A DNA stretch of 47,929 bases from an uncultured Methanosarcinales archaeon (lineage in GTDB: Archaea > Nanobdellota > Nanobdellia > Woesearchaeales > GW2011-AR9), in assembly GCA_964594395.1 (NCBI GenBank), contig CAZQLW010000002.1, positions 1 to 47,929 on the forward strand. Direction: 5' to 3'. Under the pieces are notes generated by a model, which was given only the letters and a program-made list of their open reading frames with translations, ran no database searches and was not told the DNA's origin. The first letter of the stretch is position 1; the number at the start of each line of letters is the position of its first letter. The position numbers and the translations under genes were made by a program. Below, piece after piece: positions 13,924 through 46,406 of the stretch.

Positions 13924-13945
13924 GTTAAGTCCAGATGAAGCTCTA

Positions 13946-13953
13946 TTTATAAA
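13946..13953 (-). promoter_or_regulatory. TATA box (palindromic TTTATAAA) for the 5S rRNA
   Basis: 22 nt upstream of the predicted mature 5' end (13923). This is the same spacing as box-to-ATG in leaderless mRNAs here. Confidence 0.5.
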
Positions 13954-14041
13954 AGTTACGCTTATTTCGGATGTAGCCGCTTATTTCTTGATTAATCTTC
14001 CACAAACGTTTAAAAGTTATCTCAATTCACTTAAACAAAAG

Positions 14042-17972: not shown

Positions 17973-18069
17973 GGCAATCGGGGGGAATCGAACCCCCAAC
18001 TGAAGCTCTCTGCGTAATAAACTTTTTTACGCCACAGGCTTCCATGATAACCGTTTCACCACGATCGCC
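17973..18069 (-). tRNA. tRNA-His (anticodon GUG) with a 24-nt intron at the canonical 37/38 position
   Basis: Minus strand reads G(-1) GCGAUCG UG GUGA AACGGUUA UCAU G GAAGC CUGUGG|CGUAAAAAAGUUUAUUACGCAGAG|A GCUUC AGUU GGGGG UUCGAUU CCCCC CGAUUGC C. All four stems pair. G-1 opposite C73 is the His identity element. The intron folds into a helix-bulge-helix-bulge-helix, with both cut sites after the second nt of a 3-nt bulge. No encoded CCA. Confidence 0.9.
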
Positions 18070-23804: not shown

Positions 23805-25328
23805 CTAAAATCCAATGCCAGAATAACTTTGTTTAAACTGAGTTTCTTCTTTACCTTTTTCAACAAACTCTTCAAATAAAGGAACTTTTACCGGAACCGC
23901 GAATCGGGTGAACGTACTGGTTACTAAAGCTTCACCTTTATCTAAAGCGGCAATATTACGATTATCTTGAGAAAGGTCTTGTGGTGAAGATTCTATTATT
24001 GCCTGTCGTTCAGAATTCATTTCTATCCCTAAAATGATTTTAGTGTTCATATTAGCAAGGATATTTTTTGGTATTTCGCTTGGAAGTTGAGTAATTGCTA
24101 TTAAACCAACTTTAAATTTTCTCCCTTCTCTTGCTAGAGTTTCAAAAATGTTACTTCCTTGTTCTAAAACTTTTTTACCTAACACTCTTGGTGCTTCTTC
24201 TAAGACGATAGAAATTACTGGTTTCTCGTCTAACTGGCCGTTCTTTTTGTAATACTTATATTTTTCAAATATTTCTGTAGTAATTAAACTGCCAATCATG
24301 ATTTCAATTGCTCCAGAAAAATAGCTAGTATCAATAATTACTATTTTTCCTTGTTCCAAATCTTGACAAATCTCACTAACAGTATTTTCTCCAGCAACAA
24401 AATCAAAAATTCCTTGACAATACAACTGTTCATCTACCAATTCTAATCCCAGAAGAGAAATGAGTTTCCTTTTAACTACAGAAATTGTATCTTCATGGAA
24501 ATGTACCCCTTCAATTCTTTTTTCTCCGAGCATTGAAGATATCCATTCTTCTTTGAATTTTCGGTAATAAGCATAAATACATTGTTTTTGTGGATCGCTG
24601 AGAGAAATGGCACCTTGAAAATGTTCAGGTTTTAATTTTTTTAAATTGATTTTTAAACTCCTAGCACCAGGTGGTGGGCTACTAGGGGTATAGTAACTAA
24701 CTTTATCTTTTTGCGGATGATCCTTTAACCCTAATCCGGTTCTACCATAATACTCATCGTGCGGGTCAAGAACTAACATTCCTGCATAATTGTTTTTCAA
24801 AATGTCCCAAAGAATACAAGACATTAAATTTGATTTTCCTTTTCCTGTAGATGCTGGGATAAGAACATGATGGCTCAGGACATCTTTACCAGCCAGAAAA
24901 ACGTTAAAGTCCATCTCTTTACTTCCTGATCTTAGTTTTCCTAGAAATAAAGGATTTTGTGGGGTGGTAATAAACGATAAATCTTCTTTAGTAATTTCTC
25001 TTACTTTAGTAAAGAAAGTAGGCAACTTTTTACAAGTTTTACTGTTTTGGCCAACGTTTAAAATTGGTTTTAAGAAAGCTAGTTGATAGTTTCTAAGATT
25101 TTGGTCCATGATTGAGAATGAACTTTCCTCCTCTAAACTCATCCCGGCAACCATTTCCAGATTTTGTTGTGATATTTGGCTCCCGTAAACTAAATCGTAA
25201 ACTTGAAGGATAAACTTTTCACCATTATTTTCAATTACTACTAATTCTCCTAATTCTACTTCTTCGTCTGTTTTTATCCGCATAACTATTTTACCGAAAT
25301 CTCCAGAAACAACTTGGCCTTTTGTCAT
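23805..25328 (-). CDS. HerA-like (DUF87) hexameric ATPase/helicase
   Basis: N-terminal HAS-barrel-like segment. Walker [31 protein letters not shown] and [21 protein letters not shown] are typical of the HerA/FtsK clade. Confidence 0.8.
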
Positions 25329-25825: not shown

Positions 25826-27001
25826 ATGGTGGAATTAAGAGCTTTACATTTCTCAGACTTGCACGAAGATTATGCTAAATTGGAAGCTATTCAAGAATTC
25901 TTATCAGATCATGAAAGTATTGATGTTACTCTATATTCTGGTGATTTTATTCAGTGTCAATATGAAATTACAAAAGATATTGGTGGTTTTTATGATACTG
26001 AAGGAAGACCTTTTATGGCTAGTTTGTTAGAAGGGGGCTTTAATGCATGCCAAAGTGATGAATTATTTAATGAAAAGAAAGAAGAATTAGTTTCTCTTAT
26101 TGAAGAAGTTAAAACTCGAGATGTAACTATGGGGGATCAAGAAAAATATGGTTCTTTAATTAGTGTACTAACTGACTTAGTTGCAAAAAAAACAATCGAA
26201 GTAACAGATAAAACATTTCCTGAAAAATTAGCAAGAGAATCTTATCAGAAATTGGCTGATGAATTTGGAAAAATAAATGAGATTGCTCCAATTTGTGGGG
26301 TTCTTGGAAACCATGATTTAACTATTGGTTATGACGCATTAGGTGATGTTGTAACTTTTTTAGAAACAACTGAAAAAGCAGTTGTGAAAGGAAAATCCGG
26401 AATTGAATTTATTCTTAAAGGAGACATTAATAGTTATGAAGTTCCACCTTTAATCGGGGTAATTACAGGGATTGATAATTCTTTCTCTCGACATTTTATT
26501 GATTATGATCTAGGCAATTCTTTAGATTATGTTACTGAGATGGCTGAGAAAGCTAAAGAAGGGGATGATAATAGCCATTATAATGATTTATTAGATTCTT
26601 TACCTGAAAAAGTAAAAAATGAGCAAAAAAGATTAGGTTCAGCAGATGATGTTGATATTTATTTAACACACAAGCTTCCTAATTGTGAAAAATCTGCACC
26701 TAAGAATAGAAAGGTTTATGGGTGTCCTACCGGAGACATTGCAAAAGAATATTCAGAACATGCTAGCTGTACTTATGGTGGACATTTTCATAGTATGCAA
26801 GTTGGTGATAATTTTTTAGAAACTTTGCTTGAATCTAATGATTTTGAAATTGATGAAGATGGATGGAACGTTATTTATGTTGAAGACGAACAATTAAAAT
26901 TCATTAACTCTGCAGGGGATGGCTTTACTGTTACAGAATTTGATGAAGATAAAAGCATTGAATGTATAATGGTATACGAATTAATTGATGTTTACGATTA
27001 G
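25826..27001 (+). CDS. calcineurin-like metallophosphoesterase with a ~120-aa insertion between motifs II and III
   Basis: Motifs appear in order: HFSDLH (DxH), YSGDF (GD), LGNHD (GNHD), LTHK (H) and GGHFH (GHxH). Confidence 0.75.
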   Translation: MVELRALHFSDLHEDYAKLEAIQEFLSDHESIDVTLYSGDFIQCQYEITKDIGGFYDTEGRPFMASLLEGGFNACQSDELFNEKKEELVSLIEEVKTRDVTMGDQEKYGSLISVLTDLVAKKTIEVTDKTFPEKLARESYQKLADEFGKINEIAPICGVLGNHDLTIGYDALGDVVTFLETTEKAVVKGKSGIEFILKGDINSYEVPPLIGVITGIDNSFSRHFIDYDLGNSLDYVTEMAEKAKEGDDNSHYNDLLDSLPEKVKNEQKRLGSADDVDIYLTHKLPNCEKSAPKNRKVYGCPTGDIAKEYSEHASCTYGGHFHSMQVGDNFLETLLESNDFEIDEDGWNVIYVEDEQLKFINSAGDGFTVTEFDEDKSIECIMVYELIDVYD

Positions 27002-27008: not shown

Positions 27009-28295
27009 TTATTTTCTACTTTTTGGTTTTACTTTAACTTTTTTTTTTGCTCTTTTCCTTCCAGTAGCTTCATCCTCAGCATCTTCTCTTTTTGTAGTCT
27101 CTTCAGCAGCTTTCTGTGTTGCTTCTGCTGCTTTTTTTTCTTGAGCTTCTTCTCTTTTTGCTTCTTCTACAAAATTGTCTAAAGCTTGAATAATTGCTCC
27201 ACAGATTGGTGCAATTTTTTTAATCTCAGTTTCAATCTCTTGAACTTTATTGTCCCAATCAGAATCTGTTGGTTTAGGTATTTCAATATTTTCTGCTATT
27301 GTTAAAGCCATGCCACTCTCAGCATAAAGTTGGTCAAAATGATTGTAGGCTGTACCCTGTTCTTTTCCTCTGATTCTTTTAAGATGATGAGTTGCATGTT
27401 CAAGATGTGTTTTAAGATTGTGTAATTTATCTTTAGCACTTTTTGCAGCTTTTTCTTTATCTTTTTTGTTTAACGAATTAATTATATCGTTACAATCGTT
27501 AATCGCTTTTACCAAATAACCTTTAGGGTGTCTGATATGTCCTTCCCTTCTTTCTCTTGATCTTCGTTTTTTTCTTGCATCGTCTGCTTGTGCATAGCGA
27601 GCAATTTCACTCTGTCTTTTCCGTTCTCGTTCTGCTTTTCTATCTCCGGCACCTTCAGCACGATTTAAAGTAAAAGCCCGAATAGCAGCAATAATCATTG
27701 CTAAAAGCATGATTAGGAAACCCCAACCAATAAGGTTATCCAGACTTAATAAGAATCCAGCGAAAGTTGCCCCTACAGAAATAGCAATCGCAATTGCTAA
27801 CATTACTTCTTCTTTTAACGCTTCACTTTCATGGACAAGTTTGAAACTGATATAGGCAACGATAGCAGCGATAGCTAACCCACCCCAGACTCCGAACGGA
27901 GCAAGAAGATAATTAAGTCTTTCTGTGGTACTTACTCCGGTATTAGTTTCGGCAATGAAAATAGCAAATGTTGATAATGCGGAAGCGGCAACTGCAAAAA
28001 TTTTACCTTGTTTGTTAACTTCCCCTTTAGAACCAAACAGTTTTAAGTTTCTGATCCCTTCCATGAAAATAGCAACGAAAATTACAAAGTAAAGAATGAA
28101 CGAAATAAAGTAAGCGTCTTCTATACTAGCATTACCAGTAAATAAACCTTTGAAAAAGGAAAGTACATCTGAAAAGATACCTCCTACTCCTGTATTTGAA
28201 ACGTAATCTCCTGGTGTTGGTACAGCTGCAAAAACAGTTATGGAGAATAAGCTTATCAAAATTAATGTTGGTAAAATAATATTTTTAAGTTTCAT
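27009..28295 (-). CDS. array paralog P1: signal peptide + conserved polytopic membrane domain + R/K/E-rich helical tail (uncharacterized family)
   Basis: N-terminal ~205 aa align with P2-P4 (FMEGIRNLKLFGSKGEVNKQGK, LAPFGVWGGLAIAAI, NLIGWGFLIML). Strong SD AAGGTGATCC upstream. Confidence 0.7.
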   Translation of the reverse strand: MKLKNIILPTLILISLFSITVFAAVPTPGDYVSNTGVGGIFSDVLSFFKGLFTGNASIEDAYFISFILYFVIFVAIFMEGIRNLKLFGSKGEVNKQGKIFAVAASALSTFAIFIAETNTGVSTTERLNYLLAPFGVWGGLAIAAIVAYISFKLVHESEALKEEVMLAIAIAISVGATFAGFLLSLDNLIGWGFLIMLLAMIIAAIRAFTLNRAEGAGDRKAERERKRQSEIARYAQADDARKKRRSRERREGHIRHPKGYLVKAINDCNDIINSLNKKDKEKAAKSAKDKLHNLKTHLEHATHHLKRIRGKEQGTAYNHFDQLYAESGMALTIAENIEIPKPTDSDWDNKVQEIETEIKKIAPICGAIIQALDNFVEEAKREEAQEKKAAEATQKAAEETTKREDAEDEATGRKRAKKKVKVKPKSRK

Positions 28296-28381
28296 TGAGG
28301 ATCACCTTCTTTTTTTAATAATAATTTAATCTTAATACTATTATATAAAAAGTTAAGTTATATAAATATTTCTTTAAGAAG

Positions 28382-31096
28382 TTACTTTTCTTGATATCTT
28401 TTTGGATTCTTCTTAATATGTTCTTCAAGTTCTTCAAGGTTTTTAATTTCAACTTGTAAGCCGTTAGTCCAACCAATAATTTTATTTACTGCTTCTAATA
28501 ACTGTGGCCATTTTTCATTCAATTCTTTTTCTTCTCGCCAATGAGTTTTTTTACTCATAAACAAATCAGTATAAATTTTTGTTACTTCTGCAATATTTTC
28601 CAATAATTTCCGAATACTTCCTTCATAACGAGAATTGTATTTAAGAATGTTGGCTGTAAATGTTTTCATATCTCTTTGAATTTTTTCTGCAGCGTTATAA
28701 TAAATGTTAACGCCTTTAATTGAAACAATTTCTTTTACTAATTCTTTTAATTCTTTTTCTAATCTTTGTTCAAATTTTTCAACGTTTTTTTCAGATCTAC
28801 CTACATTTTCTGAATGATTTCTAATTGCTCCCGTATTTCTTTGACCTAAATCCTTTATTTTTAGTTGTGTTTCAACATCTTCTTTTAATTTCTCAAGATA
28901 ATTAAATTCTGTAGCTAACCATTTTTTTTCTTTAGTAGCATATTTTTTTATCTTTTCCAAAGTCTTAGCTAATTTCTTTTTCTTATCTTCGTCAATAATT
29001 TTTTGCGTATTTTTCTTCGGCGGGTCATAAATTGGAATAATAACATTCTCTTCATGATTATGATTTTTACTAAACTGGATTGGTCTACCAGAGAACTTTA
29101 ACTTTTTATTTCCTTTAACTAAATCTGAACGAGGATTATCTGAATGAGTTGTTCCTTCTCCACCTCTACCAGCAAAAGAATGTTTAAAATTGGTAATATG
29201 GTAATAAATCTCTCTTTCTCCCTCTGACCCTTTGTAAACAACCACACCGGCTGGTTGTTTCTTTAAATTAACACCATCAATTTTATGTTTGATTTTTTCA
29301 AATTGGTTAGGGTCAGCTTCAAATTTTAATTCAAATTTTCCAGAAGTATCTTTAGTAGTATCAATCATAATTGGTTTAGAAAGCGGGACTAAGTTTCCTT
29401 TAATTTGGGCCAAAACGCCAACAAAAAACTTATGTCCTTTAACAAAACCATCCAATTTCGCATTATAAATTTGTTTACCGGTCATATCTTTTAAATCAAG
29501 TTCTCGATCAGGATCAAAAACTACTCTACCAGTAATTTTAAATTTTTGTAAATCTTTTTTAGGGGTATCTTTTTGCCAACCTTTCAAAACCCAAACCCCT
29601 GTTCTGACCATTTTAACTAAAGTATTTGCAGGTACCCAGGTATAACCGTTTTTCCCCCAATTTATACCATGGCTGTTTCTAATTTTGAAAGATTTCACAC
29701 CTTTCCCTTTGTAAGGGTAATGGGAATGGTACCCAACAATTACCATTCCATGCCCGCCATCTTTACCAGGGTTTGAATTTTCGTAAAATGCTTTATTATA
29801 AGGCAAGTTCATATCGTTAGGAAAATCTACAGAAATGTAACATGGGTTTTTGTTGCGAAGTTCATGTACCCATTGGTCAGGGTCTCTTCGATCCAACCTT
29901 CTAAAATCAATTAATTTTTTTGTTACTGCATCATTTGTTGCAGCCGCATCAGGAGCAGTTCTAAATTTATTACTAGGTAATCCTTCAAAAGTCCATAAAT
30001 CTTCAAAACAAACTCCATCCTTTGTTAATGTATCAATAGCTAGTGAAGATGCTGCTCCAACATCTCTATTTTCTTCACCGTATTTTTTTCTTGTTTGGTA
30101 ATATAAATAAGTTGGTGATAAATATTTTTCTGGTTGTTTATAACCTACCTTTCTAATATATTCAAAGATTGAAGTTGCCGCAAAAGCTGTACAGGCACCA
30201 AGACCATCTTGAGATCTAATCCCCATAAAATCTGGTGATAAATCTACAAAGATTTTTTCTTCGTCAGGAATTTTTGGTTGTTTAGGTACTTTTGGTGCAG
30301 GAACTGTTGGCGCGTTAGGATTTTCTCCGGGTTTAGGTTTTCCTGGTGGCATTGGCGGGTCATCAGGATTGGCTTTTCTTGGTGATGGTGGTGGCACTCT
30401 TCCTGGAGGTCGAGTATTTTCATCAGATGTTCCTCCTCCTGGAGTACTTCCATTTCCTCCAATTCCAAAAGTTCCACCATCTTTTTTCCATTTAGCAAAG
30501 GCAACTATTGCTCCTACTAATAAAGCAAGAAGCATGATTAAATATCCCCAGCCAATTAAATTGTTTAAACTTAATAAGAATCCAGCAAAAGTTATTCCTA
30601 CGGATGCAGCAATAGCAATGGCTAACATAACTTGTTCTCTGAAAACTTCACTATCATAAATTAGTTTAAATGTTATATAACACATAATTCCTGCAATTGC
30701 TAACCCACCCCAAACTCCGAAAGGAGCAAGAAGAGCATTCAGTCTTTCAGTTGTACTAACTTGAGTAGCATAATCAATCACATACAAAGAGAGAGTAGAT
30801 AGAAGTGAAGCAGCAACAGAAAACACTTTACCCTGTTTGTTTACTTCGCCCTTATAACCGAAGATTGGTAAAGCGCGTAACCCTTCCATAAAAATTGCTA
30901 GAAATAAAATGAAAAACAAAATTTGTGAAATTAAATAAGCTGATTCTATTTCCGGTACTCCAGCAAATAAATCTTTAATAAACTGAAACAGGTTAGTAAT
31001 TGATTCTCCCGGTGTTGGCACTTCTGCCAGAACTGAGAAAGAGAACATAATAGTTAAAAGTAAAATAATCGTACCTATTCTTGTTTTACTGTTCAT
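28382..31096 (-). CDS. array paralog P2: same membrane domain + Gly- and Pro-rich linkers + papain-like (C1) cysteine peptidase domain + beta-rich region + helical tail
   Basis: Membrane domain is nearly identical in motifs to P1. Peptidase residues: Q296 and C302 (RSQDGLGACTAFAATS), H449 (GGHGMVIVGY) and N474 followed by W480 (IRNSHGINWGKNGY). The Q-to-C spacing of 6 matches papain. Confidence 0.75.
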   Translation of the reverse strand: MNSKTRIGTIILLLTIMFSFSVLAEVPTPGESITNLFQFIKDLFAGVPEIESAYLISQILFFILFLAIFMEGLRALPIFGYKGEVNKQGKVFSVAASLLSTLSLYVIDYATQVSTTERLNALLAPFGVWGGLAIAGIMCYITFKLIYDSEVFREQVMLAIAIAASVGITFAGFLLSLNNLIGWGYLIMLLALLVGAIVAFAKWKKDGGTFGIGGNGSTPGGGTSDENTRPPGRVPPPSPRKANPDDPPMPPGKPKPGENPNAPTVPAPKVPKQPKIPDEEKIFVDLSPDFMGIRSQDGLGACTAFAATSIFEYIRKVGYKQPEKYLSPTYLYYQTRKKYGEENRDVGAASSLAIDTLTKDGVCFEDLWTFEGLPSNKFRTAPDAAATNDAVTKKLIDFRRLDRRDPDQWVHELRNKNPCYISVDFPNDMNLPYNKAFYENSNPGKDGGHGMVIVGYHSHYPYKGKGVKSFKIRNSHGINWGKNGYTWVPANTLVKMVRTGVWVLKGWQKDTPKKDLQKFKITGRVVFDPDRELDLKDMTGKQIYNAKLDGFVKGHKFFVGVLAQIKGNLVPLSKPIMIDTTKDTSGKFELKFEADPNQFEKIKHKIDGVNLKKQPAGVVVYKGSEGEREIYYHITNFKHSFAGRGGEGTTHSDNPRSDLVKGNKKLKFSGRPIQFSKNHNHEENVIIPIYDPPKKNTQKIIDEDKKKKLAKTLEKIKKYATKEKKWLATEFNYLEKLKEDVETQLKIKDLGQRNTGAIRNHSENVGRSEKNVEKFEQRLEKELKELVKEIVSIKGVNIYYNAAEKIQRDMKTFTANILKYNSRYEGSIRKLLENIAEVTKIYTDLFMSKKTHWREEKELNEKWPQLLEAVNKIIGWTNGLQVEIKNLEELEEHIKKNPKRYQEK

Positions 31097-31115
31097 CTTC
31101 CTCTTTTTTTTACTT

Positions 31116-32399
31116 TTACTTCTTCATAGCTTCTAATTTTGCTTCTTCAAGTTTAAATTCTTTTTTTGCGTTTTCAAAAATTCTAACTAAAGCAGTATCG
31201 GCTTTGATTGCTTCTTTTAAAATGTCTTTTAGTTGTAAATATTTGGCTTTTGTTCCTCCTCCTCTACCAGCATCACCTTTGATATAAGGACTTACATGGG
31301 CACCAAATTTTGCACCTAATGTTCCTAAAACCTTGTCAAATTGTCCATTTCTTGCTTCTAATTTAATTAAATCTTTCCAATACACTTCTATCTTTTGTTT
31401 CCAATTTTTAATTTTTCTTTTTTGGCCATCATTGGCTTTATTTTCTAATTTGTTTAAGTGTTTAATAAAGTGATCAAGTCTTCTTCTCATTCGGCGTAAA
31501 GTCCTTTCTTCTCTTTTAACTTTAATATATTTGAACTTTTTAGTGTCTCCTAACTTACCATTTTTTTTCTTATATTCATCATCTAACTGTTTGTCTACTG
31601 TTTTTAACCAAGCGAATTCAGCAATGGAAAATTTTTCTAATTTTTCTGCTTCTTTTTTACCTTTGTCTTCATCACTTATAGATTCACCACCAGAATCTTC
31701 TCCTCCACCAAGAATTCCTCCTCCTCCACTACTACTTCCACCACTTCCTCCAGAAGAAGTTGAACCACTGCTATTAGATCCGCCGCCTTTAAACATGGTA
31801 AAAAGTCCAATTATTAATGCTATCATCATAATAATGAAACCATAGCCAATAAGGTTAGGTTCAGAAATAAACCATCCACCGAACATTAAACCTGCTGAAA
31901 AAGCGGTGACCGCTCTTATGCCAGTGTGACTTTTTAAAAAATCTGCTTCTTTAGTTGCTAAGAAAATTATTAAAGTCATTATACCGGCAATGGCTAGACC
32001 CGCCCAAACACCGAAAGGAGCAAGTGCGTTTTTCATCATTTCTCCAGTAGATTGGCCAGTGAATTGTTCGCCCATAAAGATTGCTGCTACTGAAAGGAAA
32101 GTTGCTGCAAATGCAAACCATTTTCCGGGCGTATTAATTTCTCCTTTTCCGCCAAAAAGTGGAAGGAACTTTAATCCTTCAACATAAATTGCCATGATTA
32201 AAATAAAATAGGCAATGTAAATTAAGAAATAACTTTGTTCTGCATCAGCTGAACCTGTAAACATGTCCATGAAGAAACTTCCTGCGTTTTTGAACATTTC
32301 GCTGAATGTGGGCATTCCTTCTTGAGCAAGAACACCGAACGAAAGTAATCCGATCAGAGCTAAACAAATTGTTAATAAAATAATATTTTTAGTTTTCAT
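31116..32399 (-). CDS. array paralog P3: same membrane domain + Gly/Ser linker + helical K/E-rich tail
   Basis: YVEGLKFLPLFGGKGEINTPGKWFAFAAT, LAPFGVWAGLAIAGI and NLIGYGFIIMM. GGTGAT SD. 6-nt gap to P4. Confidence 0.7.
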   Translation of the reverse strand: MKTKNIILLTICLALIGLLSFGVLAQEGMPTFSEMFKNAGSFFMDMFTGSADAEQSYFLIYIAYFILIMAIYVEGLKFLPLFGGKGEINTPGKWFAFAATFLSVAAIFMGEQFTGQSTGEMMKNALAPFGVWAGLAIAGIMTLIIFLATKEADFLKSHTGIRAVTAFSAGLMFGGWFISEPNLIGYGFIIMMIALIIGLFTMFKGGGSNSSGSTSSGGSGGSSSGGGGILGGGEDSGGESISDEDKGKKEAEKLEKFSIAEFAWLKTVDKQLDDEYKKKNGKLGDTKKFKYIKVKREERTLRRMRRRLDHFIKHLNKLENKANDGQKRKIKNWKQKIEVYWKDLIKLEARNGQFDKVLGTLGAKFGAHVSPYIKGDAGRGGGTKAKYLQLKDILKEAIKADTALVRIFENAKKEFKLEEAKLEAMKK

Positions 32400-32405
32400 G
32401 ATTAA

Positions 32406-33614
32406 TCACCTGTTCATTTTATTTTCAATTGAATCTTTTTTTAACTCTTCTATTAATTCATTATCAATTGCTTTTAATGCTGATGTCGCTTTAGCTATTT
32501 TTTGAGTGATTTTTAATGCTTCTTCTAAAGTTTCTTTTGCTTTTACTTTAGTTTTAGCATTTTCTGCATCTTTAAGTTTATTTTTCAAATTAATTTTTAA
32601 TTCTTTTTCTAAAACGCCACTAAAAACTGTTAATTTCTCTTTAGTTTCCGGGTTCTTAGTAATCACGTTCTCAATTTTTCCTACTGCGTCTGTTACAAAA
32701 CGATCAAAATTTATTGCTTTATCTTCATATCTTGAAGCCGCTCTAATTTCTTCTTTTGCTTTTTTAAGCGTTCCTTTTGGTCTTTTTAATTCTTTTAAAG
32801 CGTCTTTAATTTCATCAGTAGTTTTCTTATTATATCTCCAAACATTTCTTAATGCTTGAACCAATTTTTTGGTTAGAGTCTTTCCCGTTTTAGGGTTTTC
32901 TGGCCCCGGAGTTGTTGGTGAATCATTTCCATCACCTTTATCCATATATTTCGCTTTACCAAAAAAAGTATTTCCATCATCAGGAGTATCATTGTAATGT
33001 TTGACAATAGCCACAATAACTCCAACAACAATCGCAATTATCAATATAAAATATCCCCAACCAATGACGTTTGCTTGAGAAAGAAAAAACCCGGCAAAAA
33101 TCATTCCTACTGCTAAAGAATAAGTTATTCCTAACGTTACATGTTTTTCAAATAATCCGGAATCTTTTCCAGCTAAGAAAACGATTAATGCAAAAATTCC
33201 TGCCAAAGCAAGACCTGCCCAAACTCCGAAAGGAGCTAAAGCCATATTAATAAGTTCTTGTGACGATTGACCTGAAGCTTGTTCAGCAATAAATATAGCC
33301 ATTACAGAAAGGGTAGTTGCGGCAAAGGCAAACCATTTTCCTGGAGTGCTGATTTCTCCTTTACTGCCAAAAAGAGGTAAGTATTTTATCCCTTCAACAT
33401 AAATTGCGATAATCAGAATGAAGTATGCTATAAAAACAAGGAAATAAGTGTGGTCCATTGATGCCGATCCGACCATTACGCCTTTAGTAAATATGCTTAA
33501 ATCGCTAAACAAATTTTTAAATATTTCACTGGCAGTAGGAACATTTCCATTTTGAGCTAAAGCACTGAAAGAAAAGATTACGAAACTTAACATGAATAAT
33601 AATACTTTTTTCAT
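32406..33614 (-). CDS. array paralog P4 (first gene of the array): same membrane domain + helical K/E-rich tail
   Basis: YVEGIKYLPLFGSKGEISTPGKWFAFAAT, LAPFGVWAGLALAGI and NVIGWGYFILI. GGTGAT SD 5 nt upstream of the ATG. Confidence 0.7.
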   Translation of the reverse strand: MKKVLLFMLSFVIFSFSALAQNGNVPTASEIFKNLFSDLSIFTKGVMVGSASMDHTYFLVFIAYFILIIAIYVEGIKYLPLFGSKGEISTPGKWFAFAATTLSVMAIFIAEQASGQSSQELINMALAPFGVWAGLALAGIFALIVFLAGKDSGLFEKHVTLGITYSLAVGMIFAGFFLSQANVIGWGYFILIIAIVVGVIVAIVKHYNDTPDDGNTFFGKAKYMDKGDGNDSPTTPGPENPKTGKTLTKKLVQALRNVWRYNKKTTDEIKDALKELKRPKGTLKKAKEEIRAASRYEDKAINFDRFVTDAVGKIENVITKNPETKEKLTVFSGVLEKELKINLKNKLKDAENAKTKVKAKETLEEALKITQKIAKATSALKAIDNELIEELKKDSIENKMNR

Positions 33615-33772
33615 TTTACATCACCTATTTTAAATATTATACTAATTAGTATAAACTAAAGAGAAATAACCAGCCTATTTAAAATTTTCTTATCTCTAAT
33701 AGTTAATTAGGTTTAAATTGGATTATTGATGTTTGAAAATAATTAACTTCAATCAATAAAAACAACAAAAAT

Positions 33773-33780
33773 AATATAAA
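33773..33780 (+). promoter_or_regulatory. TATA box (AATATAAA) for gatD
   Basis: 23 nt upstream of ATG 33804. Confidence 0.45.
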
Positions 33781-33803
33781 CTACTAAACAATTTCTTTAA
33801 ACT

Positions 33804-35096: not shown

Positions 35097-35573
35097 ATGG
35101 TGTTGCTTTTTTTAACTGTTGGTGTGCTTTTGCTAGTTTTACTTAATCTTTATTTTTATTATCAAAGCATGAAATCAGTAGACAAAGATCTTCAGAAATT
35201 TAATTGGGATAACTTGCAAAAAGAAGAATACTTAAAAAAATGTTACAATTATGTTGGCGATAGATTTGGAAGAGTTAAACATTGTTGGTTAGTTTTACCG
35301 TGGAGAAATTTCTTTTATCGGAACATGTGGAAAATGAAAAACAAAGGGTTGCCTTGTCATATGTACACCTTTTTTTTAAACCAGTGTCTGAAAAAAAAGT
35401 TCCCTAAAAAAAATATTAAAACTATTTTTGCTGCTGATCGGGCAAAGAATATTGTTGTTCATTTTTATACAAAAGTTAAACTGTCTGGGAAATGGATTAA
35501 TGCTGATTCTTGGGGAAAGAAAAGAGGATTACCATTCGGAAAAAATATTCATGATTCAAAATGGAAGAGGTAA
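35097..35573 (+). CDS. membrane-anchored transglutaminase-like (Cys-His-Asp) superfamily protein
   Basis: N-terminal TM. Candidate triad in family-typical order and context: GLPCHMYTFF (Cys), IVVHFYTKV (His) and WINADSWG (Asp). Confidence 0.45.
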   Translation: MVLLFLTVGVLLLVLLNLYFYYQSMKSVDKDLQKFNWDNLQKEEYLKKCYNYVGDRFGRVKHCWLVLPWRNFFYRNMWKMKNKGLPCHMYTFFLNQCLKKKFPKKNIKTIFAADRAKNIVVHFYTKVKLSGKWINADSWGKKRGLPFGKNIHDSKWKR

Positions 35574-35577
35574 GAAA

Positions 35578-35832
35578 ATGAAGAAAATATTTTTATTAAT
35601 TGTATTGTTGTCAACTATTTTTTTAATTGCTTGTAGTAGTATAAAAGAATGTTCTGTTGATAAGGATTGTGTTACTAGCACCTGTTGTCATGCTTCAGAA
35701 GCAGTTCCAAAAGAAGATGGGCCGGACTGTACAGGACAGTTATGCACTATGGAATGTGTACCTGGGACGGTTGATTGTGGTCAAGGAAAAGTTAAATGCG
35801 TTTCTGGAGAATGTGAAGTTGTTTTGAATTAA
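35578..35832 (+). CDS. small Cys-rich secreted lipoprotein (start revised from 35428)
   Basis: MKKIFLLIVLLSTIFLIAC has a lipobox-like LIAC. Eleven Cys after the signal in about 65 aa by hand count. The ATG lies 4 nt after the upstream stop. The tracked upstream extension overlaps the previous gene in another frame. Confidence 0.55.
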   Translation: MKKIFLLIVLLSTIFLIACSSIKECSVDKDCVTSTCCHASEAVPKEDGPDCTGQLCTMECVPGTVDCGQGKVKCVSGECEVVLN

Positions 35833-38094: not shown

Positions 38095-40092
38095 ATGTAC
38101 AAAAAGAGGGATAGAAAAAGTCTATTTAGTTTAATATTTAATAGTTTTAGCTCTAAGAAAGCACAAGTTACAATTTTTATCATTTTAGGAATCGTTTTGT
38201 TATTAGCAGTAGTCTTAGTTTTTACATTAAAAGAAGAGATCACTAAATTTAAACCAGAAGAATTAATTACTCCTACAAAAGGTAAAGTTGAGAATTTTAT
38301 TATAACTTGTATGGATAAAGTTGGTGAAGAAGCTCTTTTTAAAGTCGGACTGCAAGCTGGTTACATTGAAGTTCCTGAAGAAATTGTTAAAGATGCTAGT
38401 ATGAATTTAAAAGTATCGCCGATGAACGTTGTCCCTTATTGGGCTGAGGGTCCGAATACTCACATCCCTTCTTTAGAAGAAATAAAAATTAGAATTGATA
38501 AATATCTTGAAGAAAATGTTCGTAACTGTTTATTTGAAATGCAAGCTTTTCAGAGTACTTATAACTTAATTGAAAAAACTCAACCTCTCGCAGATACAAA
38601 AATTGGTGAAAATGGTGTTATTTTTAATTTAAAATGGAATGTAGAAATACGTGATAAGTCTGGCGAAGTTATTACTGAAGTTATTAACCATGTTTCTGAA
38701 TCAAGGATAAAACTGAAACAAGTTTACGAAATGGCAAGAAGGGTTGTAGAGAAAGAAATGGAAGTTTTAAAATTTGAAGATATTACTCAAGATTTGATTT
38801 CTCTTGAACATCCCGATTTACCAGTTTCTGGCATTGAATTGAAGTGTACTAAAAAAACTTGGGAATTACAAAAAGTTAAAGATACATTACTGAACATGTT
38901 ACGGATAAATATTCGTGAACTAAAAATTCAAGGGACAGAATTTGTAGAATTTCCTGAAGAGTTAACTTATTACCAAAACCATTACATCTGGGACATTGGC
39001 GAAGATTATATTAATCCTGACGTGAGTGTAGCATTTAATTTTGATGAACGTTATCCTTACACTTTTGCAGTAACACCTTTATCCGGTAACAAAATGAAAA
39101 GTTCACAAATGGGTGGTGGTGAGATGCTTTCTTTTTTATGTATTCAAACTTGGAAATTTACTTATGACTTAATTTATCCTGTTTTAGTGAGGGTTAGAGA
39201 CGAAACTACTGGTTATGAATTTAATACTGCTTTTACTGTCCATTTGATAAAAAATACACCTTATCGTGGCGAAGCTTATGCTCGGCCATCTTATATAGTA
39301 GAAAAAGCAACTGATGAAGATTATTGTAAAAATTTGAATGTTCCTTTAACAGTTTACACGAACGAATTGGTAGAAAATAATTATACCGGAGTTTATTACA
39401 CTGACCCGTTAGAAGATGTTAATTTAAGTTTTACATGTTTACGTTACCGTTGCGAAATGGGCCAATCTGAATACGATTTTGCTGCTCAAGGGCACGTTGC
39501 GGGAATAATTACCAATTTTCCTTACTGTGTTGGCGGAATTTTACGTGGTGTTAAAGAAGGTTATAAAGAAGATTGGGTAAGAGTAGTTACTTCTCCAAGT
39601 AAAGAAGTTGAACTAAATTTAGTGCCTGTTTTTGAATTTCCATTAAACAAAGTTAAAGTTGTAAAACATCAACATTTTGAAGATGGTCAAGATTTATCTC
39701 CTGCTGAACCGTTAGGTAACGAAATGGCTTTGATAACTTTAACTTATCGTAAACAGGGTGATACTTTTGATCAACCTTACCACAAAGTTACGCAAGTAAT
39801 CTCTAAACAACTTAACACAGATTTATTTGAACAGGAATCGTTTGAATTTTTGGCTAAAGCTGATTTTACTTACGATTTAGAAATTAACCTTTTAAGTGAA
39901 GAAAAATTTTTGGGAGGATACAAAGGTAACTGGACAGTTGATTGGGACCAGTTAGAATCTGGAAATGAAATTATTTTCCATGTTTTTGCTAACGATAATC
40001 CTTCTGACGAGGAAATGTTTGGGTTAATGACGGGTTTGACAGTAAAAAGTAAAGATGTACCAGTTCCAGAAATAATCACATCACAGAAATAA
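38095..40092 (+). CDS. 665-aa secreted/anchored protein with a class III (type IV pilin-like) signal peptide
   Basis: Basic n-region followed by KKA|QVTIFIILGIVLLLAVVLVF. The rest has no recognisable domain and 8 Cys. Confidence 0.6.
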   Translation: MYKKRDRKSLFSLIFNSFSSKKAQVTIFIILGIVLLLAVVLVFTLKEEITKFKPEELITPTKGKVENFIITCMDKVGEEALFKVGLQAGYIEVPEEIVKDASMNLKVSPMNVVPYWAEGPNTHIPSLEEIKIRIDKYLEENVRNCLFEMQAFQSTYNLIEKTQPLADTKIGENGVIFNLKWNVEIRDKSGEVITEVINHVSESRIKLKQVYEMARRVVEKEMEVLKFEDITQDLISLEHPDLPVSGIELKCTKKTWELQKVKDTLLNMLRINIRELKIQGTEFVEFPEELTYYQNHYIWDIGEDYINPDVSVAFNFDERYPYTFAVTPLSGNKMKSSQMGGGEMLSFLCIQTWKFTYDLIYPVLVRVRDETTGYEFNTAFTVHLIKNTPYRGEAYARPSYIVEKATDEDYCKNLNVPLTVYTNELVENNYTGVYYTDPLEDVNLSFTCLRYRCEMGQSEYDFAAQGHVAGIITNFPYCVGGILRGVKEGYKEDWVRVVTSPSKEVELNLVPVFEFPLNKVKVVKHQHFEDGQDLSPAEPLGNEMALITLTYRKQGDTFDQPYHKVTQVISKQLNTDLFEQESFEFLAKADFTYDLEINLLSEEKFLGGYKGNWTVDWDQLESGNEIIFHVFANDNPSDEEMFGLMTGLTVKSKDVPVPEIITSQK

Positions 40093-40126
40093 AATTAAAA
40101 TTGAAATTGAAAAAAGTAAAAAAATA

Positions 40127-43100
40127 ATGGGAATTAACAAATTTAACCGATGTTGGAAAGTTATCGTAATTTTGGTACTAATACTTTTACTTAATTTACC
40201 CATCATAAGTGCTTTGGAAATATCTAATGTTCGGGTTGAAGATGTTACTGAAACTAGTGCCGTTGTTAAATGGGACACCGATGAAGCTAGTGATAGTTTT
40301 GTTAGTTACGGGAAAGAAAAAGATAATTTGGAAACTATCGGCGATGCTAGTTCTGTTACTAATCATCAATTTACTTTAACGGACTTATTACCTGAAACTA
40401 CTCATTATTACGGTGTTGAAAGTAATGAAGTTGTTGATGATAATTCTGGACAATTATATTCATTTCAAACTCTTACTCCAGACACTACTGCACCTCAGCT
40501 AGTTGTTGAAATGCCGGAACTTGTTCCTGGCAACAAGTTAAGTTTTATTGGTTGGACGGAACCGGGAGCGAAAGTTATTGTTTATGTTAATGGAGATCAA
40601 GCTGGTTCAACAACTGCATTTGAAGAAAAAATAGAAGAAGTTACTGAAATTGTTGAAACTCCTGCTGTTGAAATTGAAGATGTTGAAACTACTGAAACTG
40701 TTGAAGAAGAGTTAACTGTTAACGAAACTAGTGTTCCTGAAGCTGAAGCTGAAATTGAACAGGTGTCAGAAAACAATGAAACTGAAGAGAGTGTAACTGA
40801 AACCGAAAATGAAAGTGAAGCCCTTGCTGGAGAATCTATCGCTACTGGTTTTGCTGCTGAAAATGATAAAGTGGAAATAGTAGATTCTAGTCAAAAACCG
40901 AAAGGTAAATTTGAATTTTCTAACATCATTTTACAAAATAATGAACAAAATACAATAAAAGTTGAAGCAATAGATCAAGCAGGTAATTCTGTAAGTTTTG
41001 AGGGACAAGTTTTTGCTGATACTAGTAAACCAAAATTAGAATTTGAAGACTTGCCTGAAATTGTTGACAAAAATTCTTTCGAATTAAAAGGTAAATTGTC
41101 TGAAAATTCTACTTATGAAGTTTTTGTTAACAATAAATCCGTTTTTACTGGCGATGGAGACAAGATTGAAGATAGTATCACTTTAGATGAAGGAGATAAC
41201 AATGTTGTTGTAGTTATTAAAGATTCTGCTGGTTGGGAAGTAACTAAAAAGTTTGTAATTTATTCTGATACTCAGCCTCCTGCAGTGAAAATTGAAATTG
41301 AAAAAGGTAAAGATTATTATCAAGGGAGAGCAGTATCTAGTATTCATGGAGAAACCGAACCAGGAGCAACAGTTTACCTTTATGTTTATCGCCCTTTAGG
41401 TTACGAGTACACTGCAAAATTTGATAAAGCTTGGGAAAAAGTTACTGCTGACGAAAATGGTGAATTCACTTTTAAAGATGTTAATTTTGAAAATAAGCCA
41501 ATCAATCTTAAAGATTTGGCTCCAAAACAAGTTCCTTCCGGACTTCAAGAAGATGTAGTTTTTTCTGTTCAACAACTTGCTGAACAAGAAGAAGTTAGTT
41601 ACAAAGTTTATGTACTTGCTGAAGATCGTGGTGGAAGGACTAGTTATGCTCAGGAATCAATCAATTTGAAAACTTGCCGTTCTGCTAATTGGGCTTTTGA
41701 CGTTTTATCTATGCCCCAGTTTCAAGCTCCGTTAAGGTTAGACCCAGGATTAGTTGATGAAGGAAGAGAAATTGTTCAAGCAGTTTTTAATTTTTCTTAT
41801 CGCGGTCAGGGAGTAGCACAAAGAGATTTAGCTACAGGAAATGTCTTACCAGGTAAAGAAGCTTACATCATTAACGGTGTCAGTTTTGATAAAGCTTGTA
41901 CAGAAGGATTGTTGGATGATAAAAGTTTTCAATTAGGTTGTTCAATTCTTCCTCAACAACCAAGAGGGGCCACTCCTAACGCTGACAAAACTGCTTGGTT
42001 AGTAAACTTTAATTTGCACAGTGCAGAAAAAATCAGTGAAACTGAGGAAGATTTTTGGAACGAGTTTAAGAAAAGGCAAGTTATGTTTCCATTAAAAATA
42101 ATGGTCAAGTATCAAGAACGAGGTTCTGATGGTAAATTGGGACCGCCAAAAACTCAATCTAGCTGTTATGATTTAAGTTATTTTGTTGACATTCCTATTG
42201 ATAGTAAAGATATGTTACCCGACTGGATTGCTGATGAGGGGATAGAAGCCATTCAATTTACTTTGGATAAGATTGATTTAATTTTACCTTACCTTGAAAA
42301 AGCAATTATGATATCGGGTGTTGCTTGTATCGGTTCATTTTTTGGAAGAATGATTGTGAGGTGGTTAAGAGTTGTTTATTCAGAATGGGAAGGTTATACC
42401 TCTTCGTTAACTGGCGGTGGTGGTGATTCCGGTGGTAATGGTGAGGATAAGTGTCCTACCAATCAAAACAAATTGTTGTTAGAAAGTACAAAAAAACATT
42501 GGGAAGAAGTTGAAAGTGAATTATTTAAAAATGAAGTTAACAAGCCAAGAATAAAAAATTGGAAAGAGCAAAAAACTCTTGATGATCTTTGTCCAAAAAC
42601 GGCAGCAATGTGGAAAGCTGAAAATCTTTTAGATACAGTTTACCGTTGGAGTTGTGACCGACTACTTTGTCGAGCAGTGCCTGCTGGTTGGACTTCTGAT
42701 AGGGATAAAAAAGATATTGATACGGTAATTATTTCTCAGAAAAGATGTACTGCTACTAGTAGGGGAATTCCTTTGCAACCACAAGAAAATTGTCAAAAAC
42801 TTATTGCTCAAACAGTTTCCGGTGGTGCATCGACAAGTTCTAAAGCACTTGAATTGAAACGGGATGGAGCTTTCCCTTGTTACAAGAATCCTATCAATGA
42901 TCAATTATATTATGTTGGTGAACCTGCTAAAGGTGTTGTTGACGAACCAAAAATATTGCCACTGGAGTGGTTAGGTCGACATGGATTATCTTTACAAGAA
43001 GGGTTAAACATTGATGGTGAAGATTTGATTGCTTACAAACCTGCAGGTTCTAAAGATATTATTGTGGGGACCGATCAAAGTTGTAATTATGTTTGTTCAA

Positions 43101-45802: not shown

Positions 45803-45803
45803 A

Positions 45804-46406
45804 ATGAAAAATAAAAAAGGTAAAGTTGCTACAGAATTGTTAATTATGTTAATTACGGTAGTGGTAACCAGTGCAATAATTTTTCTTTTAGTTCAAGGAG
45901 GAGTGTTAACTGTAAAAATGGAAGCTGAACAAACCTCTGTGCTGAATACAGAATTTATTCCAATGGGCAGAGAAGGTTCTCTTGCTGTTAAAGATTTTAA
46001 ATTTTGTGGTTTTGTTGATTTGAATTATCAATGTATTAGTGAAACAGAAGAATTTTATTTAGGTTCGGAAGTACATTTCATTTTCATAATTGAAAGTAGT
46101 ACTTCTAATGGTGATATTATGTTGGTGGAAAATTATATGGTTAAAGGTCCAGAAGGAAATATACTGTTAGATGTTGATGAAAAAAATAATTTTAATTTTG
46201 ATATTATTAGTAAAGAGCGTCAGGAATTAGTTACGTTTAAAGATTTTTTTGTTGTCGGTGAAGAATTAGAAGAAGGTGAGTATACTTTGGAACTTTTTGT
46301 AGAAAATCCTTTGTTGAATAAGAAAACCACTTTAATCAAGAAATTTATGATCCATCCAAAAGAATTTGAAGAATACGAAATAGATTTTACTGAAATTGAA
46401 GATTAA
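45804..46406 (+). CDS. 200-aa type IV pilin-like protein (start revised from 45768)
   Basis: MKNKKG|KVATELLIMLITVVVTSAIIFLLV is a short basic leader ending in Gly, with Glu at +5 and a ~20-aa hydrophobic helix. The ATG lies 1 nt after the giant gene's TAA. Confidence 0.6.
   Translation: MKNKKGKVATELLIMLITVVVTSAIIFLLVQGGVLTVKMEAEQTSVLNTEFIPMGREGSLAVKDFKFCGFVDLNYQCISETEEFYLGSEVHFIFIIESSTSNGDIMLVENYMVKGPEGNILLDVDEKNNFNFDIISKERQELVTFKDFFVVGEELEEGEYTLELFVENPLLNKKTTLIKKFMIHPKEFEEYEIDFTEIED

What the first reader, a model, noticed from the sequence alone, without database searches (positions are those of the whole stretch)
27009..33614. Tandem array of four paralogous polytopic membrane proteins with different cytoplasmic tails: candidate undescribed envelope system
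Four consecutive same-strand genes encode a Sec-type signal peptide and a ~200-aa membrane domain. They are P4 32406-33614, P3 31116-32399, P2 28382-31096 and P1 27009-28295, with gaps of 6, 19 and 86 nt and GGTGAT-type SD sites. The shared domain has about 5 hydrophobic segments. Shared motifs are A-I-[FY]-[MV]-E-G-[IL]-[RK]-x-L-x-[IL]-F-G-x-K-G-E-[VI]-[NS]-x-x-G-K, L-A-P-F-G-V-W-[GA]-G-L-A and N-[LV]-I-G-[WY]-G. The paralogs fall into two sub-pairs (P1/P2 and P3/P4). After the last hydrophobic segment the sequences diverge completely. They become long K/E/R-rich helical (coiled-coil-like) tails, reached through Gly/Ser or Pro-rich linkers. In P2 the tail also carries a complete papain-like peptidase domain. 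By the positive-inside rule the tails would be cytoplasmic, so this looks like one membrane module presenting four different effector or adaptor tails. I recognise no characterised family for the membrane domain. The architecture is reminiscent, by analogy only, of tandem expanded VirB6/TrbL-like channel subunits with variable extensions. The block sits between housekeeping genes (rpl35ae and a phosphoesterase on one side, gatD on the other) with no mobility genes. It therefore looks like a resident lineage-specific system, possibly tied to the cell-cell or host interface of a small-genome archaeon.
Basis: partly seen in the sequence, partly recalled or inferred. Interest (0 to 1): 0.82.

Follow-up and report, generated by a model that had tools for sequence, protein, structure and literature searches.

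The report
Undescribed Woesearchaeota membrane-anchor protein family
Four neighbouring genes of a small archaeon (Woesearchaeota) encode an undescribed five-helix membrane module, each copy carrying a different conserved tail (one a papain-like protease); the genes are real, but their function is unknown.

Summary
Four same-strand ORFs (P4-P3-P2-P1, 27009-33614, minus strand) share a signal peptide plus a five-helix membrane module of about 210 aa (41-61% identity) and carry different tails. P2 has an intact papain-family peptidase.

The module matches nothing in Pfam, NCBIfam, PHROGs, PADLOC, PDB sequences, PDB folds or viral folds. An exhaustive profile search of 1.8 billion representative proteins found 125 clusters. 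Every one that carries an organism name is Candidatus Woesearchaeota.

- The four tails are separately conserved subfamilies.
- P2's C-terminal helical domain is homologous to P3's tail.
- The locus sits between PAC2 and rpl35ae in distant relatives too.
- In those relatives the tail domains (peptidase C1, PKD, fn3-like, helical) are often separate downstream genes without signal peptides.

Charge counts over 116 sequences and an AlphaFold model put the tails in the cytoplasm. Yet many tail domains are of types that are usually extracellular, and this conflict is unresolved.

The VirB6/TrbL analogy found no support, and the nearby HerA-like ATPase is not linked in distant genomes. My best reading is a resident membrane platform that tethers cytoplasmic modules. 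An export or display device remains possible. Function is inferred, not shown.

The parts
32406..33614 (-). P4 (402 aa). Signal peptide plus five-helix membrane module (aa 1-212, nt 32979-33614), then the P4-type K/E-rich helical tail (aa 213-402, nt 32409-32978).
   Evidence: ORF, hydropathy, family HMM E 3e-62. The P4-type tail is conserved in 5 clusters. dN/dS is 0.16 for the module and 0.48 for the tail.
31116..32399 (-). P3 (427 aa). Membrane module (aa 1-204, nt 31788-32399), Gly/Ser linker (aa 205-241, nt 31677-31787), and a helical tail of four long helices (aa 242-427, nt 31119-31676).
   Evidence: AF2 full-length model (low confidence, pLDDT 57.6). The P3-type tail is conserved in 9 clusters and is homologous to the P2 C-terminus.
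28382..31096 (-). P2 (904 aa). Membrane module (aa 1-206, nt 30479-31096) and Pro-rich linker (nt 30224-30478). Then the papain-family peptidase C1 domain (aa 292-491, nt 29624-30223) and an uncharacterised middle region (nt 28967-29623). The P3-like helical domain ends the protein (aa 711-902, nt 28391-28966).
   Evidence: Pfam Peptidase_C1 E 5.3e-12, above the gathering score. Cys/His/Asn align with 3OIS. The T3 tail HMM hits aa 711-902 at E 2e-11. Orthologues are P0032, P0012 and P0059.
27009..28295 (-). P1 (428 aa). Membrane module (aa 1-213, nt 27657-28295), then the P1-type basic, helical tail (nt 27012-27656).
   Evidence: AF2 model of the module has pLDDT 83.5. The P1-type tail is conserved in 12 clusters. 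dN/dS is 0.05 for the module and 0.30 for the tail.
33615..33803 (.). AT-rich intergenic region between P4 and the divergently transcribed gatD. It is the presumed promoter region of the four-gene unit.
   Evidence: Position only and the upstream sequence. Promoter function was not tested, and no archaeal promoter tool was available.

Best explanation
The four genes form a co-oriented, probably co-transcribed set of paralogues of a Woesearchaeota-specific membrane protein family.

Each protein is inserted through a cleavable Sec-type signal peptide. A short amphipathic helix stays outside, five transmembrane helices follow, and the C-terminal tail ends in the cytoplasm. The conserved five-helix module acts as an anchor or assembly platform. 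Each paralogue holds a different, separately conserved module against the inner face of the membrane:
- P1-, P3- and P4-type helical domains;
- in P2, an active papain-like cysteine peptidase followed by a P3-like helical domain.

I expect the four to work together, probably as a hetero-oligomeric complex. In other Woesearchaeota the same module is encoded next to separate proteins without signal peptides. These correspond to the fused tail domains, so recruiting or tethering such partners appears to be the module's role.

Shown: gene structure, paralogy, helices, conservation, tail subfamilies, fused versus split forms, chromosomal residency.
Inferred: topology, co-transcription, hetero-oligomerisation, the platform role. 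The biological process served is unknown.
For: - Five helices after the signal peptide, from hydropathy and AF2.
- K+R counts over 116 family members. The TM1-TM2 loop is strongly basic (2.2, plus 2.1 at the start of TM2). The TM4-TM5 loop is nearly uncharged (0.26). The signal-peptide n-region is basic (2.0). This gives N-out/C-in.
- The unfused partner proteins in L010, L006, L012, L005 and L018 have no signal peptide or transmembrane segment, so they would be on the same side as a cytoplasmic tail.
- Fused and split versions correspond. P2's peptidase-containing tail is homologous to the separate signal-peptide-less peptidase proteins of L010 (854 aa) and L006 (1038 aa). L010 4128-6692 reads peptidase C1, PKD, then a helical end, and fused P0059 reads module, CarboxypepD_reg, then peptidase C1.
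- The four tail types are conserved orthologous groups, and P2 and P3 share a helical domain.
- Gene order P4-P3-P2-P1 is kept in a sister species.
- Purifying selection acts on both modules and tails.
- Tails have low cysteine content (0.38 per 100 aa), below the window's cytoplasmic proteins (0.83) and its predicted surface proteins (1.89).
Against: - Family tails and partners carry CarboxypepD_reg (11 of 93 members), fn3, Big_1, PKD, SdrD_B, PEGA and papain-like domains. In prokaryotes these are mostly extracytoplasmic.
- Many linkers after TM5 are Pro/Thr/Gly/Ser-rich rather than basic.
- Tails evolve 5-10 times faster than housekeeping neighbours, which is more typical of exposed proteins.
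- No dedicated topology predictor was available. AF2 pTM is only 0.53.
- Nothing tests oligomerisation or transcription.
- The P2-type gene stands alone in at least one lineage (L020), so the four need not always act together.
Confidence: 0.45

Rival explanations
1. Export or display device. The five-helix module is a dedicated Sec-independent conduit. It moves its own C-terminal passenger, or the partners without signal peptides encoded downstream, across the membrane. The papain-like domain acts as a processing or releasing peptidase. The tails would then end up on the cell surface.
For: - Tail and partner domains are of usually extracellular types but lack any signal peptide.
- Each cassette in distant loci pairs one module gene with tightly coupled downstream partners. 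Spacing is 1-3 nt or overlapping.
- Linkers are Pro/Gly/Ser/Thr-rich.
- Tails evolve fast.
- An architectural precedent has been proposed for PrsW-type polymorphic toxins (PMC3482391).
Against: - No conserved ATPase or other energiser lies in the clusters.
- P1-type tails are strongly basic right after TM5.
- Tails are low in cysteine.
- A 210-aa five-helix monomer is small for a protein conduit.
- No fold resemblance to any solved translocon.
Confidence: 0.22
2. Plain surface anchor. The charge-based topology is wrong, and the tails are co-translationally placed outside. The module would be a polytopic anchor for surface proteins such as adhesins, a protease or coiled-coil stalks.
For: The same domain-type and linker arguments as above. 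TM2 and TM4 are the least hydrophobic segments and fall below threshold in some members.
Against: - All five helices are conserved in the alignment and in the AF2 model.
- The charge distribution is clear.
- Unfused partners have no signal peptide, so they could not join an outside tail by the Sec route.
Confidence: 0.1
3. VirB6/TrbL-like or Ced-like channel subunits of a DNA or protein transfer machine. The machine would be powered by the nearby HerA/VirB4-like DUF87 ATPase (23805-25328).
For: - Polytopic tandem paralogues with extensions recall the expanded VirB6 arrays of Rickettsia (from my own knowledge).
- The DUF87 ATPase lies 1.7 kb away and stays close to the array in close relatives.
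- That ATPase has weak partial NCBIfam matches to CedD, VirB4 and TraC.
Against: - No TrbL/VirB6 profile hit in the four proteins at E<=1, nor in 93 family members at E<=1e-3.
- No type IV secretion component appears in the Foldseek list.
- The ATPase's best matches are to HerA, and it has a HAS barrel.
- The ATPase is 97% identical to the sister species' copy, like a housekeeping gene.
- It is separated from the array by oppositely oriented genes.
- No homologue of it appears in L006, and no DUF87 gene is called in the fetched stretches of L010, L012, L018 or L020. L012 is cut just beyond rpl35ae, so that locus says little.
- No other transfer genes are present.
Confidence: 0.05
4. Conflict or mobile cassettes: polymorphic toxin-immunity, antiviral defence or a provirus remnant. 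A constant N-terminal trafficking domain would carry variable C-terminal effectors.
For: - Constant head with variable tail, in a multi-copy cluster.
- Small RHH-, AbrB- or HTH-like genes precede cassettes in distant loci.
- Papain-like peptidases are common processing domains in polymorphic toxins.
Against: - Tails are conserved orthologous groups, not shuffled toxins.
- No toxin, immunity or defence profile hits.
- No integrase or transposase is nearby.
- The chromosomal position is fixed across the phylum.
- No hit in viral contigs or viral folds.
- GC content is like the rest of the window.
Confidence: 0.08

Closest known systems
VirB6/TrbL inner-membrane subunits of type IV secretion, including the tandem extended VirB6 paralogues of Rickettsia (from my own knowledge)
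   Same: Polytopic module of five or more helices, tandem paralogues, and large hydrophilic extensions that differ between copies.
   Different: No sequence match and no fold match. No VirB4, VirD4 or other type IV genes in the clusters. The nearby DUF87 ATPase is HerA-like and is not linked in distant genomes.
PrsW-type polymorphic toxins: an N-terminal multi-helix membrane peptidase fused to variable C-terminal domains (Zhang et al. 2012, PMC3482391)
   Same: A constant N-terminal polytopic module with variable C-terminal domains. Papain-like peptidases occur within the same kind of architecture. A membrane-conduit role is proposed there.
   Different: No PrsW profile hit. PrsW has about eight helices with catalytic motifs. 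The tails here are conserved helical or Ig-like modules, not toxins. No immunity genes were recognised. The locus is fixed in the chromosome.
Gram-positive-type YidC/Oxa1 insertases: lipoprotein signal peptide, outer amphipathic helix, five helices and a basic C-terminal tail (from my own knowledge)
   Same: The same overall layout: signal peptide, short outer helix, five helices, N-out/C-in, and a basic tail in P1-type members.
   Different: No 60KD_IMP profile hit and no YidC among the Foldseek matches. The first cytoplasmic loop is a 13-residue hairpin, not a coiled-coil paddle. Tails carry whole domains.
Papain family (C1) cysteine peptidases; the closest solved structure is 3OIS, deposited simply as 'cysteine protease' (applies to the P2 domain only)
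   Same: Pfam match above the gathering score. Catalytic Cys, His and Asn are conserved.
   Different: No pro-peptide was recognised. The domain is fused behind a polytopic membrane module and is predicted to lie in the cytoplasm. It is followed by a P3-like helical domain.

Membership tests
VirB6/TrbL | Match to the TrbL/VirB6 sequence profile | tested here: not met
   No such Pfam hit for P1-P4 at E<=1, nor among 93 family members at E<=1e-3.
VirB6/TrbL | Fold resemblance to solved VirB6-type subunits | tested here: not met
   Foldseek of the AF2 module against PDB gave best E 0.56 and TM 0.23. No type IV secretion chain is in the 50 matches shown. Caveat: model pTM is 0.53.
VirB6/TrbL | Encoded with VirB4 and other type IV secretion genes | tested here: not met
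   Neighbours are housekeeping genes. Distant clusters contain no such genes. The DUF87 protein is HerA-like.
Papain family C1 (P2 aa 292-491) | Profile match above Pfam's curated cut-off | tested here: met
   PF00112 at 46.7 bits against a cut-off of 20.7.
Papain family C1 (P2 aa 292-491) | Catalytic Cys, His and Asn present | tested here: met
   GACTA, GGHGM and IRNSHG align with GSCTA, GGHAV and IRNSWG of 3OIS.
PrsW-type N-terminal membrane peptidase | PrsW profile match and about eight helices with catalytic motifs | tested here: not met
   No PrsW hit. Five helices, not eight.
YidC/Oxa1 insertase | 60KD_IMP profile match or YidC fold | tested here: not met
   No Pfam hit. No YidC chain in the Foldseek list.
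Ced DNA-import system (CedA-type membrane protein) | Match to curated Ced models and linkage to the Ced ATPase | tested here: inconclusive
   No NCBIfam hit for P1-P4 at E<=0.1. The library does hold a CedD model, which weakly matches the DUF87 neighbour. I could not confirm that a CedA model is in the library.
Anti-phage defence systems (PADLOC) | Match to any defence-protein model | tested here: not met
   Only a 14-bit non-significant hit for P1, and none for P2-P4.
The new family itself (Woesearchaeota five-helix module) | Signal peptide, five helices, the FG-x-x-G-x-x-[NS]-K-x-G-K loop and the L-x-P-F-G-x-[WF]-G-G motif | tested here: met
   All four window proteins score E 1e-62 to 4e-76 against the family HMM. 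The motifs are visible.

The most novel reading that the evidence does not exclude
The five-helix module is a self-contained, Sec-independent export or display device of the archaeal cytoplasmic membrane, a kind of inner-membrane autotransporter. It would carry its own C-terminal passenger, or partners without signal peptides encoded just downstream (Ig-like, PKD, fn3-like or papain-like), to the cell surface of an ultra-small symbiotic archaeon. In some lineages the partner may be docked by a donated beta-strand from the module's C-terminus.
Probability: 0.15. Interest if true: 0.85.

Novelty: categorically new. Interest (0 to 1): 0.6.

Why it matters
Woesearchaeota are abundant, uncultured, small-genome archaea, and almost nothing is known about how their cell envelope is built or how they interact with partners. 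This locus is a conserved, multi-copy island at a fixed chromosomal position. It encodes a membrane module with no detectable relative by sequence or by fold.

It also poses a concrete puzzle. Ig-like and papain-like domains, which are normally outside the cell, are predicted to be inside, and their unfused counterparts lack signal peptides. If that is resolved in favour of export, it would define a new route of protein display in archaea. If it is resolved in favour of a cytoplasmic platform, it would define a new membrane-associated protease and scaffold complex.

Either way, the family gives a specific target for proteomics, cryo-ET and topology mapping in enrichment cultures. I call it 'categorically new' in the sense of an unassignable protein family, not a demonstrated new mechanism.

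Tried and rejected
- Profile scans of P1-P4 against Pfam, NCBIfam, PHROGs and PADLOC gave only the P2 peptidase hit and noise.
- A Pfam scan of 93 family members found no recurrent family for the membrane module.
- PDB sequence searches with three profiles gave nothing significant.
- Foldseek of the module against PDB and BFVD gave best E 0.56 and 0.44, so no match.
- The word-indexed protein search reached only 8-10 close relatives, even with a diverse profile.
With the four paralogues it found only the sister genome and nothing in viral contigs.
- Link to the DUF87 ATPase: rejected. The ATPase is highly conserved, like a housekeeping gene, and has no counterpart next to the clusters in distant loci.
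- N-glycosylation sequon enrichment as a test of tail location was uninformative. Even the window's predicted surface proteins show no enrichment.
- The full-length AF2 model of P3 was too weak (pLDDT 57.6) to justify a fold search of the tail, so I ran none.
- Pfam did not confirm the fn3 reading of the split junction in L018.
- Four literature searches found no description of this family.
Full report
**1. The observation**

The four minus-strand ORFs are at the coordinates given: P1 27009-28295, P2 28382-31096, P3 31116-32399 and P4 32406-33614. They are separated by 6, 19 and 86 nt. GGTGAT-type ribosome-binding sequences precede P1, P3 and P4, and GAGGAAG precedes P2.

The first 205-213 residues of each protein align throughout, and all three quoted motifs are present. 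Pairwise identities are P1/P2 61% and P3/P4 52%, with the other pairs at 41-48%.

Hydropathy shows an N-terminal signal-peptide-like segment with A-x-A-type ends, followed by five hydrophobic segments. An AlphaFold2 model of the P1 module, built on a 35-sequence alignment, has pLDDT 83.5 and pTM 0.53. Its elements are:
- a signal helix (3-21);
- an amphipathic helix (37-53);
- five long helices (58-81, 95-119, 123-155, 161-183, 186-213);
- a small beta-hairpin in the conserved lysine-rich loop after the first transmembrane helix.

P2 carries a Pfam Peptidase_C1 domain above the curated cut-off. Its Cys, His and Asn align with the solved cysteine protease 3OIS.

The genes are real. A sister species about 85% identical in DNA keeps the same order P4-P3-P2-P1. 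dN/dS against it is 0.05-0.23 for the modules and 0.30-0.48 for the tails, compared with 0.03-0.07 for gatD, thermosome, SPP and the DUF87 ATPase.

**2. The surroundings**

The window is a low-GC (about 31%) archaeal chromosome segment. It carries rpl35ae, gatD, thermosome, HisRS, PAC2, an STT3/AglB oligosaccharyltransferase and sugar-nucleotide enzymes. No mobility genes lie near the array. A family HMM finds exactly four members in the window.

**3. The family**

The membrane module matches nothing in Pfam, NCBIfam, PHROGs, PADLOC or PDB sequences. Its model has no structural neighbour in PDB (best E 0.56, TM 0.23) or in predicted viral structures.

An exhaustive profile search of 1.84 billion representative proteins returned 125 clusters at E<=1e-3, of which 34 were at E<=1e-30. 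The module is N-terminal in all but one of them, in proteins of 115 to 2355 aa. In P0082 a domain of about 270 aa lies between the signal peptide and the module. Every member that carries an organism name is Candidatus Woesearchaeota. Most are unnamed metagenome proteins.

**4. The tails**

BLAST clustering of family tails shows that the four window tails belong to four separately conserved groups: P1-type in 12 clusters, P3-type in 9, P2/peptidase-type in 8 and P4-type in 5. The paralogues are therefore old subfamilies, not recent duplicates with scrambled ends.

P2's C-terminal helical domain (aa 711-902) is homologous to P3's tail (hhalign 92%, E 6.7e-7; hmmsearch E 2e-11). This corrects the claim that the tails diverge completely.

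Across 93 family members the tails contain CarboxypepD_reg (11 members), fn3 (5), Peptidase_C1 (4), Big_1 (4) and single cases of SdrD_B, PEGA, Invasin_D3 and collagen repeats. These domains usually follow directly after the fifth helix with no extra transmembrane segment.

**5. Gene context elsewhere**

Close relatives (L001, L004) have two members at the same place, next to rpl35ae, DUF87 and SPP.

Distant Woesearchaeota show clusters of two to four members, interleaved with genes for proteins that have no signal peptide and no transmembrane segment:
- L010 has partners of 210 aa, 854 aa (Peptidase_C1 plus PKD), 627 aa, 2753 aa and 313 aa.
- L006 has partners of 1038 aa (papain-like) and 369 aa.
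- L018 has a 240-aa fn3-like protein among others.

These partners are homologous to the fused tails. P2's tail matches the L010 854-aa protein and the L006 1038-aa protein. The same domains are thus fused to the module in some lineages and encoded as separate proteins in others.

The cluster lies between PAC2 and rpl35ae in L018, as in the window. L010 shows the PAC2 side, and L006 and L012 show the rpl35ae side. This argues for a resident, vertically inherited island.

Small RHH-, AbrB- or HTH-like genes precede several cassettes. One P2-type orthologue stands alone among housekeeping genes (L020).

**6. Topology**

Lysine and arginine counts over 116 aligned modules are as follows:

| Region | Mean K+R |
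|---|---|
| Signal-peptide n-region | 2.0 |
| Segment between signal peptide and TM1 | 1.3 (over 21 residues) |
| TM1-TM2 loop | 2.2, plus 2.1 at the start of TM2 |
| TM4-TM5 loop | 0.26 |

The lack of signal peptides on the unfused partners is coherent with that.

The conflict is that the tail and partner domain types are normally extracytoplasmic. Linkers after TM5 are often Pro/Thr/Gly/Ser-rich. I tried sequon and cysteine statistics. Sequons were uninformative. Cysteine content of the tails (0.38 per 100 aa) is lower than in the window's cytoplasmic proteins (0.83) and in its predicted surface proteins (1.89). I put the cytoplasmic location at roughly 70-75%.

**7. Mechanism**

*Best reading (0.45).* The module is a membrane anchor or assembly platform that holds distinct cytoplasmic modules at the inner membrane face. 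Those modules are helical domains and a papain-like peptidase with a P3-like helical domain. The four paralogues act together.

*Main rival (0.22).* The module is a Sec-independent conduit that exports its own tail or the partners lacking signal peptides, with the peptidase as a releasing enzyme. The nearest published architectural idea is the PrsW-type polymorphic toxin (PMC3482391). However, there is no PrsW match, no energiser in the clusters, and the tails are not toxins.

*Lower-ranked rivals:*
- A plain surface anchor with mispredicted topology (0.10).
- Conflict or mobile cassettes (0.08).
- A VirB6- or Ced-like channel coupled to the DUF87 ATPase (0.05).

The last of these fails on sequence, fold and context. 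The ATPase is HerA-like with a HAS barrel, and it is 97% identical to the sister species' copy. No homologue of it was found in L006, and no DUF87 gene is called in the fetched stretches of L010, L012, L018 or L020. L012 is cut just past rpl35ae, so it says little.

**8. Comparison and novelty**

The layout resembles Gram-positive YidC (signal peptide, outer helix, five helices, basic tail) and extended VirB6 paralogues. Neither membership test is met. Only the P2 peptidase domain can be filed in a known family (papain family C1).

I found no paper describing the family. I rate it as an unassignable new protein family. The function is unknown and every mechanistic step beyond anatomy is inferred.

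**9. Verdict**

Interest is moderate to high (0.6). Lineage-specific hypothetical membrane proteins are common in DPANN genomes. This one stands out for its fixed island, its four conserved tail types, the fused versus split partner relationship, and the unresolved inside/outside puzzle, all of which make it directly testable.

Noticed in passing
L018 2640-2820 (junction at 2723-2727); proteins P0041, P0043, P0080, P0085, P0127: Five distant family clusters end with the same C-terminal motif 'P.QVQ.F.G.M..'. In L018 the next ORF starts on an overlapping TAATG with 'MVGVRLEW...RYEIERR'. That sequence aligns to the later strands of the Pfam-validated fn3 of P0068 (E 3e-5). The gene boundary seems to cut an fn3-like domain after its first strand. 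This could mean strand donation between two proteins, or -1 recoding. Pfam sees no fn3 in either piece.
   Followed up: partly
P0042, P0049, P0063; L006 4922-5734; L010 2601-3491: A second group of short members ends in a shared motif 'W[YK]P.[IV]..I......K[LM].G.V'. The next gene follows at 1 nt or overlaps by 14 nt in another frame.
   Followed up: no
L010 9798-9974; L012 38-178 and 6007-6177; L018 7012-7188; L006 4668-4925: Small (46-85 aa) RHH-, AbrB/SpoVT- or HTH-like genes sit directly upstream of family cassettes in distant Woesearchaeota. No such gene is present in the window's array.
   Followed up: partly
L006 19737-20138; L018 8606-8992; L010 1880-2275: A conserved small polytopic membrane protein (128-133 aa, 47-54% identity) lies at an edge of the cluster in three distant loci. 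It has no counterpart in the window (tblastn).
   Followed up: partly
window 23805-25328 (-): HerA-like DUF87 ATPase with a HAS barrel. It has partial NCBIfam matches to HerA, CedD, VirB4 and TraC, all far below their cut-offs. It is always followed by a signal-peptide peptidase gene in close relatives, with no NurA-like neighbour seen. It is 97% identical to the sister species' copy.
   Followed up: partly
window 25826-27001 (+): This Metallophos-domain gene converges on P1, with stops 7 nt apart. It evolves unusually fast: 51% aa identity to the sister species and dN/dS 0.52, compared with 0.03-0.07 for its neighbours. It is absent from this position in L001 and L004.
   Followed up: partly
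window 17973-18068 (-): Rfam finds a tRNA spanning 96 nt for a 71-position model. ARAGORN reports no tRNA anywhere in the window. It is probably an intron-containing archaeal tRNA.
   Followed up: no
window 13813-13925 (-): A 5S rRNA gene (64 bits). The listed ORF 13814-14812 (+) overlaps all of it on the other strand, so its annotated GTG start is probably spurious.
   Followed up: no
window 38095-46406 (+): Three consecutive genes (665, 1891 and 212 aa) downstream of PAC2 each have a single N-terminal hydrophobic anchor. The 1891-aa protein has fn3, Pur_ac_phosph_N and Glucodextran_B domains and is Cys-rich. They look like conventional surface proteins and are not family members.
   Followed up: partly
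window 35428-35832 (+): A small protein with a lipoprotein-like 'LIACSS' signal and a Cys-rich C-terminal half (14 Cys in the last 60 residues). No Pfam match.
   Followed up: no
L007, L008 (CAZXEM010000038.1, CAZXEM010000011.1): The only GTDB species-representative genome with close relatives of the array is titled 'uncultured Methanosarcinales archaeon'. It is about 85% identical in DNA to this window. All named family members are Woesearchaeota, so the label looks wrong. Its assembly breaks inside P2.
   Followed up: partly
window 4421-7246 (-): STT3/AglB-type oligosaccharyltransferase next to a sugar-nucleotide and polysaccharide biosynthesis block (929-13525). The organism can probably N-glycosylate. 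Even so, its predicted surface proteins show no sequon enrichment (ratio 0.56).
   Followed up: partly
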